A DNA stretch of 64,000 nt from Escherichia coli (GTDB lineage Bacteria > Pseudomonadota > Gammaproteobacteria > Enterobacterales > Enterobacteriaceae). Positions 2,521 through 5,979 of the stretch are shown one piece after another. A program made the position numbers and the translations under genes. The notes under the pieces were generated by a model, which saw only the letters and a list, made by a program, of their open reading frames with translations, did no database searches and had not been told where the DNA came from. The stretch's first letter is position 1; each line of letters starts with the position of its first letter. Where the stretch lies: assembly GCF_003334765.1 (NCBI RefSeq), contig NZ_QOWT01000013.1. One strand, given 5' to 3'.

Positions 2521-3084
2521 TTAAGGTAGACGCTTTATCTCTTGTGCAATAGAAGCGGCTTCCTGACTCCAGACACCGGCCAGCACTTTAACCATCTCAT
2601 CGTAACCATCCTGAGTTTGCACTCCTTCCAGACGGAACGGACGTTTGATCAGTTGTCCCTGGTGGTTCAACAGCCACTCACCACTGACAATGACCTTGCC
2701 ATCATAGCGACCGTTAAACTCCGTTACGGTAACATTGAGCGTGTCCTGGGCGCTTCCCAGAGGCTGGGAGACAACCACCCAGCCGGGCAGTTGCGTACTC
2801 AGGTTGGCAACCAGGGTGTTGCGCAACTGTTGATCCAACGGGCTGGCCCACAAGTTGTTGTTGGCAATCACATACTTCACATCACTGGTTTGATAAACCA
2901 CACCATTCCCCGCCAGATAGTCAGGAACAGTGACCTGCTCTACCCATAACAGACGATTGCCCTGGCTGGCGGTACTTTGTGTACCGCTCTGCACCACAGG
3001 TAACTGGTAATAGTTTTTATTAATTTCGCCGGAGCTGCATCCGGCCAGCCACAGTGCTGCAATCGTCACTAGCCACTTTTTCAT
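2521..3084 (-). CDS. pqiC: PqiC (YmbA) outer-membrane lipoprotein of the Pqi MCE transport system (187 aa)
   Basis: Translation MKKWLVTIAALWLAGCSSGE... has a lipoprotein signal with lipobox LAGC; recognised as PqiC/YmbA. Its start overlaps the pqiB stop (ATGA). Confidence 0.88.
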   Translation of the reverse strand: MKKWLVTIAALWLAGCSSGEINKNYYQLPVVQSGTQSTASQGNRLLWVEQVTVPDYLAGNGVVYQTSDVKYVIANNNLWASPLDQQLRNTLVANLSTQLPGWVVVSQPLGSAQDTLNVTVTEFNGRYDGKVIVSGEWLLNHQGQLIKRPFRLEGVQTQDGYDEMVKVLAGVWSQEAASIAQEIKRLP

Positions 3085-4721
3085 TGTTTCGCCCTCTTCG
3101 GCTCTGGATCTTTTTTGTCCTTCGCTTCAAATACCAGCGCGTTACTCTTCTCATTGAGCGTTTTCAGCACCGGTTGCAGTTCTCGCAACACCTGATCAAG
3201 GCGCTGCATATCCGCCACCATCTTGTTGTAGGCTGCGGAGCCAGGCTGGAAGCCCTGCATGCTGCGATTCAATTCACGCAACGTTGACTGCATATCCGTC
3301 GGCAACTGCTGCATCGACTGGCTAGCGAGGATCTTGTTCATGCTATCCAGCGTCGTTTGCAGGTTTTTCATTGTGCGCTGACTTTCAGAAAGCGTACTGG
3401 TTGCCTGTTCAATCATCGGATTCAATGGCAGTTTGTTGATCTTATCCAACGCTTCCATCAGTCGTTGCTGGATTTGCGCCAGGCCGCCGCTAACGGTCGG
3501 GATAATCTGATAACCATTAAATTCACGAATACCGGTTATTGCAGGCGTATTTGGATAGAAATCGAGATCAACATACAGTGCACCAGTGACCAGGTTTCCG
3601 GTTTTCAGCGATCCGCGTAAACCACGTTTCAACAATTCGCCAAGGTGCTCAACAACATCCGCATTTTCGCCAAGCTGCATTTTCAGCCGCTCTGGCTCGA
3701 TACGAATCAGTACCGGAATACGGTAATCATCGTTAAATGTCTGACGCATATTCGGCGCAAAGAATGGCACTTTGCTTACGGTACCCAGGCGAATACCCCG
3801 GAACTCTACCGGAGCTCCCGGTTGCAGACCGCGTACCGAATCTTTAAAGAACATCAGATAATCAATGTGATCGGTGTACAACGAATCCTGAATGCTCTTC
3901 TGATCATCATACAAAACGAAAGCTGTTTTCGGTGCCACTGGCTGCCCTAAATCCAGACCTTCCGGCACATCAAAGCTGACACCGCCACTCAGCAGCGTTG
4001 TCAATGAGCCCATCTCCACACGCATCCCTGCTGACGTCAGATCAACCGCAATGCCACTATCTTTCCAGAAGCGAACATTGTTGGTCACCAGTCGGTCATA
4101 AGGTGCATTGATGAACAGTTGATAGCTGATATTGCGTTTTTGTGTATCGAAGGTGCTGGTTTCAACCGAACCTACCCGATAGCCACGGAACAGCACCGGA
4201 TCTCCTGGCGAGAGCTGCCCGGCTTTTTTGCTATCGAGAATCACACGGATACCTTTCGCATCAGGCGGGGCCAACGGTGGCGAGTCCAGCAAATCGTATT
4301 TATCCATTTTGCTGCCTTTCGCGCCTGGCTGCAGTTCGATATAAACTCCAGACAGCAGCGTTCCCAGGCCGCTAATCCCTTCGCGACCAATCTGCGGTTT
4401 CACCACCCAAAAGACGGTGTCTTTATGCAGCAATTTTTCCATACCGGAATTCAGCCGCGCTTTGATTTCAACGTGCGTCAAATCATCAGCCAGTGTGGCG
4501 CTTTCAACCACGCCGACGTCAACGCTACGGCTTTTAATGGTGGTTTTGCCACCTTCAATTCCTTCCGCATTCGCGGTGATCAGGGTCACTTCCGGTCCCT
4601 GATGGCTGTAATGATAAAAAAGAACCCAGGCCCCAATGAGCGCCGTGACGATAGGAAATATCCACACGGGAGACCAGTTCTTCACTTTCTGGATTTTGGC
4701 TTCCCCATTATTAGATTCCAT
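3081..4721 (-). CDS. pqiB: PqiB, periplasm-spanning MCE-domain protein (546 aa)
   Basis: Translation from the ATG at 4721 begins MESNNGEAKIQKVKNWSPVWIFPIVTALIGAW... with an N-terminal TM segment and a long helical C-terminus. The track ORF extends 20 codons further upstream into pqiA, so I use the internal start. Confidence 0.88.
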   Translation of the reverse strand: MESNNGEAKIQKVKNWSPVWIFPIVTALIGAWVLFYHYSHQGPEVTLITANAEGIEGGKTTIKSRSVDVGVVESATLADDLTHVEIKARLNSGMEKLLHKDTVFWVVKPQIGREGISGLGTLLSGVYIELQPGAKGSKMDKYDLLDSPPLAPPDAKGIRVILDSKKAGQLSPGDPVLFRGYRVGSVETSTFDTQKRNISYQLFINAPYDRLVTNNVRFWKDSGIAVDLTSAGMRVEMGSLTTLLSGGVSFDVPEGLDLGQPVAPKTAFVLYDDQKSIQDSLYTDHIDYLMFFKDSVRGLQPGAPVEFRGIRLGTVSKVPFFAPNMRQTFNDDYRIPVLIRIEPERLKMQLGENADVVEHLGELLKRGLRGSLKTGNLVTGALYVDLDFYPNTPAITGIREFNGYQIIPTVSGGLAQIQQRLMEALDKINKLPLNPMIEQATSTLSESQRTMKNLQTTLDSMNKILASQSMQQLPTDMQSTLRELNRSMQGFQPGSAAYNKMVADMQRLDQVLRELQPVLKTLNEKSNALVFEAKDKKDPEPKRAKQ

Positions 4722-4725
4722 ACTG

Positions 4726-5979
4726 TCAGGACTCCTCATGCTCTGATTCAGGTTGACGATCCCACGACAAACGCGGGTCAAACGTCATAGCAGAAAACAT
4801 TGTCATTATGACGACTAAAGCAAACATTAATGCACCCATTGCCGGATAAATACTCATTAAACCTCCCATACGCACCAGCGCCGAGAGCACCGCGATAACG
4901 AAAACGTCAATCATCGACCAGCGGCCTACAAACTCAACAACTTCATAAATCAAATGCATTCTTTCACTGTCGCGCTTGCCATGCCCTTTGGCATCCCAAC
5001 ACAGCCACGCGATGGCGATCATCTTTAACGTTGGCACCATAATACTGGCCAGAAAGATCACCGCAGCGACGGGATAAGAGCCTTCGCTCCATAACAGAAT
5101 GACCCCAGCGAGAATCGTCGACGGCATCTTCGAGCCTAATAAATCCGTCACCATGATGGGCAAAATATTAGCCGGAAGATACAGCATGATGGACGTTACA
5201 AGCAGCGCGAGTGTCCACTGCAGGCTGTTTCTACGCCGAACGTACCCTTTGGTACTACAACGCGGGCACACGGGTTCATCAGCAGGAAGGATTGCCGTAC
5301 AACAGGAGCACGAACGCAGCCCCTGACGTATCCCCGTGACGCCTGGTTTTAGCGGCTGGCGCAGTTCTGGCATCGGGGCGATGTCGTCCCATAACCAGCG
5401 ACGATCAACGCACTGAAAAGCGCGCAGTTGCAGGACACAAAATAAACACCAGGGGAGAAAGCTGCTGCCTACCCCAATGCTGCCGTAAGCCATCAGTTTA
5501 ACGAAACTGACCAGCACACCCGCGAGGAAAATCTCCGCCATTCCCCAGGTTTTGAGTTGAAAAAGCACCCGTGCCAGTTGCTCTTTTAAACGGACCGGTA
5601 ATTCCGCGCGATTCACCAGTAACAGAATGGTTATCAGACAAAACGCGGGAACCAGTTGCACAAACAACAGGAAAAAGGTGCCGAGGCTGGCGTAGTCCTC
5701 AGAAAAAAGCACGCCGGGAATTTCCAGTAATGTAATTTCACTGGTAACTCCTGCAACGTTCATATTCACAAAAGGAAACAAGTTGGACAGCAACAGCATG
5801 AACAGTGCAGCCAACGCATAGGCGGTGGGACGCTGCCGAGGGGCATCCCACGCCACGGTTAACGTTGTGCCACACCGGGGACATGCCGCTTTCTGACCAT
5901 GCTCAAGGCGCGGTAACGCCACCAGCATGTCACACTGCGAGCACAGGATGTGCTTCGCGGCATGATGATGTTCGCACAT
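4726..5979 (-). CDS. pqiA: PqiA, paraquat-inducible inner-membrane protein (417 aa)
   Basis: Translation MCEHHHAAKHILCSQCDMLVALPRLEHGQKAACPRCG... shows two CxxC...CxxC zinc-ribbon-like motifs flanking hydrophobic segments; recognised as PqiA. Confidence 0.88.
   Translation of the reverse strand: MCEHHHAAKHILCSQCDMLVALPRLEHGQKAACPRCGTTLTVAWDAPRQRPTAYALAALFMLLLSNLFPFVNMNVAGVTSEITLLEIPGVLFSEDYASLGTFFLLFVQLVPAFCLITILLLVNRAELPVRLKEQLARVLFQLKTWGMAEIFLAGVLVSFVKLMAYGSIGVGSSFLPWCLFCVLQLRAFQCVDRRWLWDDIAPMPELRQPLKPGVTGIRQGLRSCSCCTAILPADEPVCPRCSTKGYVRRRNSLQWTLALLVTSIMLYLPANILPIMVTDLLGSKMPSTILAGVILLWSEGSYPVAAVIFLASIMVPTLKMIAIAWLCWDAKGHGKRDSERMHLIYEVVEFVGRWSMIDVFVIAVLSALVRMGGLMSIYPAMGALMFALVVIMTMFSAMTFDPRLSWDRQPESEHEES

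What the first reader, a model, noticed from the sequence alone, without database searches (positions are those of the whole stretch)
2521..5979. pqiABC: envelope-spanning MCE transport system whose substrate is still unclear
pqiA has two CxxC...CxxC zinc-ribbon-like motifs (CSQCDM...CPRCG and CSCCTA...CPRCS) around its TM segments, pqiB has an N-terminal TM helix plus a long helical C-terminus, and pqiC has a lipobox (LAGC). Gene junctions are tight (4-bp overlap and 4-bp gap). The architecture is known to form a periplasm-bridging channel, but cargo and direction remain open to my knowledge. It is immediately followed by rmf, a stationary-phase ribosome hibernation gene on the same strand.
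Basis: partly seen in the sequence, partly recalled or inferred. Interest (0 to 1): 0.4.

Follow-up and report, generated by a model that had tools for sequence, protein, structure and literature searches.

The report
E. coli pqiABC lipid-transport operon
This is the ordinary, fully annotated pqiABC operon of a K-12-like E. coli, an envelope-spanning lipid conduit with solved structures whose cargo and direction are still open, and it is transcriptionally separated from the neighbouring rmf gene.

Summary
There is a 4-bp gap, then a 4-bp overlap, and rmf lies 255 bp downstream. The stretch differs from E. coli K-12 MG1655 by one base and is present in all 5,426 complete E. coli genomes.

All three proteins match their curated families. 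PqiB and PqiC have solved structures. A confident PqiA model superposes on its solved paralogue LetA. The eight motif cysteines are conserved in 110-114 of 114 distant relatives; the other seven are not. This zinc-ribbon architecture was published for LetA in 2026, including a swap with the PqiA ribbons.

It is not new.

The hinted link to rmf is weak:
- A strong hairpin plus U-run follows pqiC and recurs in 39 of 55 related genomes, against 3 of 275 shuffles.
- rmf has its own promoter.
- The adjacency is confined to Enterobacterales.

Side notes: a rare PqiC A105V allele, and an 11-29 nt uup-pqiA spacer in many genera.

The parts
4726..5979 (-). pqiA CDS (417 aa): inner-membrane LetA-like subunit
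   Evidence: ORF; RefSeq annotation; NCBIfam NF011683 at 844 bits; identical to K-12 PqiA
5854..5955 (-). PqiA N-terminal zinc ribbon (residues ~9-42; C13, C16, C33, C36)
   Evidence: Four short beta-strands in the AF2 model. The Cys are kept in 110-113 of 114 relatives. The equivalent LetA domain binds Zn (PMC13017536).
5380..5835 (-). PqiA first transmembrane module (Pfam PqiA repeat, residues 49-200)
   Evidence: PF04403 E=3.8e-39; helices 49-67, 97-122, 129-162 and 174-190 in the model; hydrophobic segments
5248..5319 (-). PqiA second zinc ribbon (residues ~221-244; C224, C227, C238, C241)
   Evidence: All four Cys kept in 114 of 114 relatives; spacer length 10 is the commonest in the family
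4756..5223 (-). PqiA second transmembrane module (Pfam PqiA repeat, residues 253-408), including the G352-R-W-S-M-I-D358-V-F motif
   Evidence: PF04403 E=3.9e-53; G352, W354 and D358 invariant; the motif is described for LetA
3081..4721 (-). pqiB CDS (546 aa): periplasm-spanning MCE subunit
   Evidence: NCBIfam NF008070 at 862.5 bits; PDB 5UVN over residues 35-432, E=5e-264; identical to K-12
4617..4673 (-). PqiB N-terminal membrane anchor (residues 17-35)
   Evidence: The only hydrophobic 19-mer above threshold in PqiB
3558..4598 (-). Three MCE (MlaD) domains of PqiB (residues 42-133, 157-233, 288-388)
   Evidence: PF02470 three times, E=3e-12, 3e-09 and 7.4e-10
3084..3425 (-). PqiB C-terminal helix ('needle', ~433-529) and C-terminal peptide 530-546 (D538, P539, P541) that docks on PqiC
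   Evidence: Sequence; weak coiled-coil-type Pfam hits; pull-downs and deletion in the 2026 preprint
2521..3084 (-). pqiC CDS (187 aa): outer-membrane lipoprotein; lipobox LAGC codons at 3037-3048; ABC_trans_aux domain at residues 26-180
   Evidence: NCBIfam NF033620 at 284 bits; PF03886 E=2.9e-40; PDB 8Q2C and 8Q2D
2770..2772 (-). Codon 105 of pqiC: GTC (Val) here, GCC (Ala) in K-12. It is the only difference from MG1655 in 2030-6110.
2465..2500 (-). Intrinsic terminator of pqiABC: a 31-nt hairpin (2500..2470) running into a run of 7 U, starting 20 nt after the pqiC stop
   Evidence: dG -18.4 kcal/mol, z = -4.3, 0 of 200 shuffles as good; also flagged by the scan. An equivalent hairpin plus T-run occurs in 39 of 55 related loci, against 3 of 275 shuffles.
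2266..2402 (-). rmf promoter and 5' UTR. This is the sequence-conserved half of the spacer, with TTGACG at 2365..2360 and a published TSS 58 nt before the ATG (about 2323). It marks the boundary of the system and is not part of it.
   Evidence: Conservation profile of 30 spacers; PMC6134199
5980..6108 (-). uup-pqiA spacer (129 bp) holding the only sigma-70-like match of the region (6091..6063) and the pqiA Shine-Dalgarno AAGGAG

Best explanation
The region is the chromosomal pqiABC operon of a K-12-like Escherichia coli.

Shown here or in solved structures:
- PqiA is an inner-membrane protein of the LetA family. It has two four-helix, tetraspanin-like membrane modules, each preceded by a cytoplasmic Cys4 zinc ribbon.
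- PqiB is anchored by one N-terminal helix. It has three MCE domains that form stacked hexameric rings, and a C-terminal helix that forms a hollow needle.
- PqiC is an outer-membrane lipoprotein that forms an octameric ring and holds the PqiB C-terminal peptide.
- The three genes are translationally coupled (4-bp gap, then ATGA overlap).
- The operon ends at an intrinsic terminator 20 nt after pqiC. rmf, 255 bp downstream, has its own sigma-70 promoter.

Inferred, not shown: by analogy with LetAB, PqiA takes a phospholipid from the inner membrane and loads it into the hydrophobic PqiB tunnel, which carries it across the periplasm to the PqiC-capped outer-membrane end. I rate the export direction (inner to outer membrane) at about 0.55. 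The energy source, proton motive force or none, is unknown.
For: - Identity. One base differs from MG1655, and the locus is in 5,426 of 5,426 complete genomes.
- Structures: PqiB 5UVN; PqiC 8Q2C, 8Q2D and 6OSX; LetA 9N8W at E=1e-43 over PqiA residues 12-409.
- PqiA model: AF2 pLDDT 91.9. Its only significant PDB match is LetA (TM 0.86/0.92, rmsd 2.5 A), followed by weak TARP/claudin half-matches.
- Conserved residues: the eight zinc-ribbon Cys, K161, the GRWSMxD motif and D358.
- Gene order: pqiA-pqiB-pqiC is kept in every complete locus of the 80 species sampled. The pqiB-pqiC overlap is -4 or -1 in 72 of 79.
- Terminator and rmf promoter.
- Mechanistic analogy and open points: PMC13017536, PMC10897342 and bioRxiv 10.64898/2026.05.09.724024.
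Against: - Nothing argues against the identity.
- The transport step is inference. No experiment read here shows Pqi moving a lipid, and the authors of the structural papers call lipid transport by Pqi 'speculative'.
- PqiA has Ala164 where LetA has Asp181 of its polar network, so the LetA mechanism may not transfer in detail.
- The published E. coli Term-seq tables held as text list no 3' end at the predicted pqiC terminator. Termination there is therefore predicted, not measured.
Confidence: 0.85

Rival explanations
1. PqiABC works in the retrograde direction. Like Mla, it would return mislocalised phospholipids from the outer membrane to the inner membrane, with PqiC as the extraction end.
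For: Mla, the best-studied E. coli MCE system, is thought to act retrogradely. Directionality of Let and Pqi is explicitly unresolved. Pqi mutants show outer-membrane barrier phenotypes such as LSB sensitivity.
Against: The LetAB structure, simulations and crosslinking favour loading from the inner membrane into the tunnel. PqiA shares that fold and its key residues. There is no MlaA-like extraction channel; PqiC is a ring around the needle.
Confidence: 0.3
2. pqiABC and rmf are functionally linked through read-through. Stress-induced pqi transcripts would run past pqiC into rmf, coupling envelope maintenance to ribosome hibernation.
For: rmf follows pqiC on the same strand in all 58 loci where both were found, across Enterobacterales families, at a typical spacing of 240-350 nt. 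Intrinsic terminators are rarely fully efficient (general knowledge).
Against: - A strong hairpin plus U7 lies 20 nt after pqiC. An equivalent element occurs in 39 of 55 loci, with the structure kept while the sequence changes, against 3 of 275 shuffles.
- rmf has its own mapped sigma-70 promoter in the spacer, and that half of the spacer is the sequence-conserved one.
- pqiABC occurs without an adjacent rmf in Rheinheimera, Alishewanella, Orbaceae, Tolumonas and Budvicia.
Confidence: 0.08
3. The PqiA zinc ribbons are regulatory rather than structural. They would be a redox- or zinc-sensitive switch tuning transport under the oxidative stress that induces the operon.
For: The eight Cys are almost invariant across the family. 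Cys4 zinc sites in other proteins can be oxidation-sensitive (general knowledge). The operon is named for paraquat induction.
Against: In LetA, only the Cys of the ribbons are mutation-sensitive. Cys mutants lower the protein level, the PqiA ribbons can be swapped in, and deletion of the C-terminal ribbon leaves partial function. This points to a folding or stability role.
Confidence: 0.05

Closest known systems
E. coli K-12 PqiABC (b0950-b0952; PDB 5UVN, 8Q2C, 8Q2D)
   Same: PqiA and PqiB are identical in sequence. The gene order, junctions, terminator and flanking genes (uup, rmf, fabA) are also identical.
   Different: One base differs: PqiC has A105V, a rare natural allele. It is absent from 5,426 complete genomes but present in a few draft genomes.
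E. coli LetAB (YebS/YebT; PDB 9N8W, 6V0C)
   Same: This is a paralogous system. PqiA and LetA share two zinc ribbons, two tetraspanin-like modules, the GRWSMxDxF motif and the equivalents of K178 and D367. PqiB and LetB are both multi-MCE tunnels.
   Different: - LetB has more MCE-domain rings and no helical needle (PDB matches; ring numbers up to 6 are cited from published work, from memory).
- Let has no PqiC-like lipoprotein.
- PqiA has Ala164 where LetA has Asp181.
- PqiA and LetA are only about 28% identical.
P. aeruginosa PA3211-PA3214
   Same: An MCE protein with a needle threads an octameric PqiC-like lipoprotein ring and docks through its C-terminal peptide.
   Different: The preprint treats it as a separate four-gene MCE system (PA3211-PA3214) whose lipoprotein is a PqiC homologue. 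The identity of its inner-membrane components was not checked here.
Mla system (MlaFEDB-MlaC-MlaA)
   Same: It has an MCE-domain hexamer and a role in outer-membrane lipid homeostasis. There is a weak MlaD model hit in PqiB.
   Different: Mla has a single MCE ring on an ABC transporter, a soluble periplasmic carrier, and a monomeric MlaA in a porin. No continuous tunnel is formed. No MlaE/MlaF-type genes are found in this locus.

Membership tests
PqiA/LetA transporter family (TIGR00155, PF04403) | Two tandem PqiA Pfam repeats, and the curated equivalog score reached | tested here: met
   PF04403 at residues 49-200 and 253-408. NF011683 scores 844 bits against a cut-off of 562; TIGR00155 scores 662.5 against 260.
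PqiA/LetA transporter family (TIGR00155, PF04403) | Two cytoplasmic CXXC-Xn-CXXC zinc ribbons, one before each membrane module | tested here: met
   C13/16/33/36 and C224/227/238/241 are kept in 110-114 of 114 relatives. Both motifs occur in 111 of 115 sequences. The feature is defined in PMC13017536.
PqiA/LetA transporter family (TIGR00155, PF04403) | GRWSM-x-D-x-F motif and the conserved Lys of the polar network | tested here: met
   G352, W354 and D358 are kept in 114 of 114, S355 in 113, K161 in 109. The LetA Asp181 position is Ala in PqiA and variable in the family.
PqiA/LetA transporter family (TIGR00155, PF04403) | LetA fold: a pseudodimer of tetraspanin-like four-helix modules | tested here: met
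   AF2 model with pLDDT 91.9 and pTM 0.89. Foldseek against 9n8w_A gives E=4.9e-25, TM 0.86/0.92 and rmsd 2.5 A; it is the only hit with E<0.001.
PqiA/LetA transporter family (TIGR00155, PF04403) | Binds about two zinc ions | not testable with these tools
   Measured for LetA by ICP-MS. Not measured for PqiA in any paper read here.
Multi-domain MCE protein, PqiB type | N-terminal membrane anchor, three MCE domains, C-terminal needle helix and docking peptide | tested here: met
   Anchor at residues 17-35. PF02470 three times. Match to 5UVN with E=5e-264. C-terminal D538, P539 and P541 are present.
Multi-domain MCE protein, PqiB type | Homohexamer with a continuous hydrophobic channel | not testable with these tools
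   Taken from published structures as cited. The sequence is identical to K-12 PqiB.
PqiC-like outer-membrane lipoprotein (PF03886, NF033620) | Lipobox with an acylated Cys, and an ABC_trans_aux domain | tested here: met
   LAGC with C16 (C16 confirmed). PF03886 E=2.9e-40. NF033620 scores 284 bits against a cut-off of 200. Match to 8Q2C with E=8e-123.
pqiABC-rmf as a single transcription unit | No terminator and no separate promoter between pqiC and rmf | tested here: not met
   Hairpin plus U7 at 2500..2465, recurring in 39 of 55 loci. The rmf sigma-70 promoter has its TSS 58 nt before the ATG. The amount of read-through was not measurable.
pqiABC-rmf as a single transcription unit | rmf accompanies pqiABC wherever the operon occurs | tested here: not met
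   rmf is next to pqiC only in Enterobacterales (58 loci). It is absent in Rheinheimera, Alishewanella, Arsukibacterium, Orbaceae, Tolumonas and Budvicia.
ABC-driven MCE system (Mla or mycobacterial Mce type) | MlaE-type permease and MlaF-type ATPase genes in the cluster | tested here: not met
   The annotated neighbours are rlmKL, uup, rmf, fabA and ycbZ. uup is annotated only as an ATP-binding protein; that it is an ABC-F protein without a membrane partner is from memory. PMC10897342 notes that no ATPase is known for Pqi.

The most novel reading that the evidence does not exclude
Uup, annotated as an ABC ATP-binding protein, is encoded immediately upstream of pqiA on the same strand. It could be co-expressed with PqiABC and functionally tied to it, and at the extreme could supply the energy input that the literature says is missing.

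The session adds one fact in favour: in 34 of 67 Enterobacterales and Orbaceae loci, the uup stop and the pqiA start are only 11-29 nt apart. That leaves room for a ribosome-binding site but not for a terminator plus a promoter.

Against it:
- Uup belongs to the ribosome-associated ABC-F class (from memory, not tested here).
- E. coli itself has a 129-bp spacer with a promoter-like site.
- pqiABC exists without uup in other orders.
Probability: 0.03. Interest if true: 0.6.

Novelty: already known. Interest (0 to 1): 0.08.

Why it matters
The locus itself adds nothing new. It is a textbook E. coli operon with solved or closely modelled structures for all three proteins.

This check adds three small points:
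- A comparative demonstration that the operon ends at a structurally conserved terminator before rmf.
- A family-wide count showing that exactly the eight zinc-ribbon cysteines are under constraint.
- The observation that uup and pqiA are almost contiguous in many genera.

Tried and rejected
- Rfam found nothing at gathering thresholds in 1-12000. Only chance-level hits with E of 0.4-0.8 appeared in 1900-6300, mostly on the rmf/fabA terminator. There is no known RNA element in the spacers.
- I looked for experimental 3' ends at the pqiC terminator:
  - The Term-seq supplement of PMC7815308 lists the rmf and fabA ends and ORF-internal ends in pqiA and rmf, but none after pqiC.
  - The TERMITe supplements have no entry.
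  - PMC9023263 has no held supplements.
  - Low pqi expression or truncated files could explain the absence, so read-through remains unmeasured.
- Literature searches for an rmf-pqi connection found only a paper that uses the spacer as the rmf promoter probe. A search for pqiA promoter regulation (SoxS/RpoS) gave nothing usable, so I do not rely on my recollection of that work.
- I searched the PqiC papers for residue 105 and its neighbours. They are not mentioned in the text, and the DMS table is an image.
- I considered and rejected the longer TTG-initiated pqiB ORF (to 4781) and the 223-aa antisense ORF (4119..4790, + strand) as mechanical ORFs. The annotated ATG start gives the conserved 4-bp gap.
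- My estimates of pqiA-pqiB spacing in other species depend on a start-codon heuristic and are not used as evidence.
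Full report
**Observation**

The ORF list shows three consecutive minus-strand ORFs: 5979..4726 (417 aa), 4781/4721..3081 and 3084..2521 (187 aa). A 55-aa ORF follows at 2265..2098. RefSeq annotation of an essentially identical E. coli record, and of K-12 MG1655, places pqiA, pqiB (ATG start, 546 aa), pqiC and rmf at exactly these positions. uup and rlmKL lie upstream; fabA and ycbZ lie beyond rmf.

pqiA ends in TGA, followed by CAGT and then the pqiB ATG. The pqiB stop and the pqiC start share ATGA.
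- The 4,081-bp stretch 2030-6110 is found in all 5,426 complete E. coli genomes. It differs from MG1655 at one base.
- The whole window is 99.97% identical to MG1655 953,979-1,017,979.

**Identity of the proteins**

- NCBIfam equivalog models for PqiA, PqiB, PqiC and Rmf are all passed by wide margins.
- Pfam gives two PqiA repeats, three MlaD/MCE domains and one ABC_trans_aux domain.
- The PDB holds PqiB (5UVN) and PqiC (8Q2C, 8Q2D, and 6OSX from Enterobacter). For PqiA it holds only the paralogue LetA/YebS (9N8W/9N8X, E=1e-43 over residues 12-409).
- An AlphaFold2 model of PqiA, built on 40 diverse relatives, is confident (pLDDT 91.9, pTM 0.89). Its only significant PDB match is LetA (TM 0.86/0.92, rmsd 2.5 A). 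Weak half-length matches to TARPs and claudins follow, as the LetA paper reports for LetA itself.

**The cysteine motifs**

A search of 1.84 billion cluster representatives gave 4,000 relatives. I aligned 114 full-length ones at 31-46% identity.

- C13, C16, C33 and C36 are kept in 110-113 of 114. C224, C227, C238 and C241 are kept in 114 of 114. The other seven cysteines of PqiA are kept in 0-32.
- The N-terminal spacer is 16 residues in 101 sequences. The C-terminal spacer varies from 8 to 22, with 10 (as here) the commonest.
- The motifs are therefore real and under constraint. They are also already explained. In LetA each motif forms a two-hairpin zinc ribbon. The protein carries about two Zn, Cys mutants are not tolerated and lower the protein level, and the PqiA ribbons can replace those of LetA (PMC13017536).
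- Other conserved LetA features are present in PqiA: K161 (LetA K178), D358 (LetA D367) and the GRWSMxDxF motif. LetA D181 corresponds to Ala164 in PqiA, and this column is variable.

**PqiB and PqiC details**

- PqiB has one hydrophobic segment (residues 17-35) and a C-terminal stretch (433-529) with few Pro or Gly.
- Its last 17 residues contain D538, P539 and P541. A 2026 preprint shows these to be needed for binding PqiC.
- PqiC starts with MKKWLVTIAALWLAGC. C16 is the lipidated residue.

**Relation to rmf**

The 255-bp spacer has two parts.

- Terminator. Twenty nucleotides after the pqiC stop lies a 31-nt hairpin running into seven U (dG -18.4 kcal/mol, z = -4.3).
- Synteny. I fetched 80 loci from one genome per species.
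  - pqiA-pqiB-pqiC is kept in every complete locus, including distant ones such as Rheinheimera, Alishewanella, Orbaceae and Tolumonas.
  - rmf follows pqiC in 58 loci, all of them Enterobacterales.
- Recurrence of the terminator. In 55 loci with a spacer of at least 200 nt, 39 have a hairpin of -13 kcal/mol or better plus a T5 run within 110 nt of the pqiC stop. This compares with 3 of 275 dinucleotide shuffles, and with 0 of 55 in the next 110 nt. The stems differ in sequence between genera, so it is the structure that is retained.
- Promoter. The distal half of the spacer (2402-2266) is conserved in sequence. It holds the mapped sigma-70 promoter of rmf, with its TSS 58 nt before the ATG (PMC6134199).

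The second half (no read-through) could not be measured. Published Term-seq tables held here list no 3' end after pqiC at all.

**How it most likely works**

Shown:
- The architecture of the three proteins.
- The PqiB-PqiC contact.
- Translational coupling of the genes. The pqiB-pqiC overlap is -4 or -1 in 72 of 79 loci.

Inferred from LetAB:
- PqiA lets a phospholipid from the inner membrane enter its cleft, passes it to a periplasmic pocket, and passes it on into the PqiB tunnel.
- Export is the direction implied by that model, but the LetA authors say it is not established.
- The Pqi authors call lipid transport itself speculative. They also do not know whether cargo stops at the outer membrane or crosses it.
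- I put export of phospholipid at about 0.55 and retrograde transport at about 0.3.

**Comparison with known systems, and novelty**

This is PqiABC itself, so the novelty class is 'already known'. The nearest relatives are LetAB (same PqiA-type loader, a different tunnel, no lipoprotein), PA3211-PA3214 (a PqiC-like lipoprotein ring around the needle of its MCE protein) and Mla (a single MCE ring on an ABC transporter). No MlaE/MlaF-type genes are present here.

**Things noticed**

- The only base that differs from K-12 within the finding changes PqiC Ala105 to Val.
  - The 81-nt segment around it has no exact match in 5,426 complete genomes.
  - The exact protein exists in a few NCBI draft genomes.
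  - Orthologues have Ser, Ala or Thr at this position, and rarely Val or Ile.
- uup precedes pqiA on the same strand in 67 loci. The spacer is only 11-29 nt in 34 of them, against 129 nt in E. coli. This suggests co-transcription in many genera. The idea that Uup is functionally tied to Pqi is the most novel reading I cannot exclude, but I rate it at about 3%.

**Verdict**

Interest is low.

Noticed in passing
window 2771 (codon 2770-2772, minus strand): This is the only difference from K-12 MG1655 in 2030-6110, and it gives PqiC A105V. No complete E. coli genome (0 of 5,426) has the exact 81-nt segment around it, but the exact 187-aa protein is on record in a few NCBI draft genomes. Orthologues carry Ser, Ala or Thr here, and rarely Val or Ile.
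   Followed up: partly
window 5980-6108; loci L002-L077 upstream of the pqiA match: The uup stop to pqiA start spacer is only 11-29 nt in 34 of 67 loci (Citrobacter, Enterobacter, Kluyvera, Cedecea, Pantoea, Erwinia and others). It is 129 nt in this window and 200 nt in E. albertii. The short spacers leave room only for a Shine-Dalgarno sequence, implying uup-pqiABC co-transcription in those genera.
   Followed up: partly
whole window; indel near 30978: The window is MG1655-like but not MG1655: 16 substitutions and one 1-bp difference in a T-run (T7 against T8) about 19 nt upstream of the ompF start. Nonsynonymous changes are ElfC Q61R, PncB F91L, LdtD Q10R, MukB Q379E, YcaL A251S and T220K, and PqiC A105V. 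The best natural genomes differ from the first 25 kb by only one or two bases.
   Followed up: partly
window ~5251 (K-12 1012729), inside pqiA: Published Term-seq data (PMC7815308 supplement) list an ORF-internal RNA 3' end within the part of pqiA that encodes the second zinc ribbon, and another inside rmf (K-12 1015759). Their significance is unknown.
   Followed up: no
window 2056-2080, both strands: An 11-bp GC-rich hairpin between the convergent genes rmf and fabA has T-runs on both sides. It coincides with the Term-seq 3' ends of both genes (K-12 1015926/7 on + and 1015897 on -), making it a shared bidirectional terminator.
   Followed up: partly
PqiA residue 164 (window 5488-5490): LetA Asp181, part of the polar network proposed for substrate or proton handling, aligns with Ala164 in PqiA. 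In 114 relatives the column is Ser 41, Asp 22, Ala 15 and Gly 13, while the other two network residues (K161, D358) are nearly invariant.
   Followed up: partly
window 2308-2330, minus strand: An inverted repeat, GTGATTGCACATTTAGTAATCAC, sits around the published rmf transcription start in the sequence-conserved part of the spacer. The scan flagged it as terminator-like, but it is more likely an operator or a 5'-end structure of the rmf mRNA.
   Followed up: no
window 4119-4790, plus strand: A 223-aa ORF lies antisense to pqiB and the pqiA 3' end. It is a mechanical ORF and was not examined for homologues.
   Followed up: no
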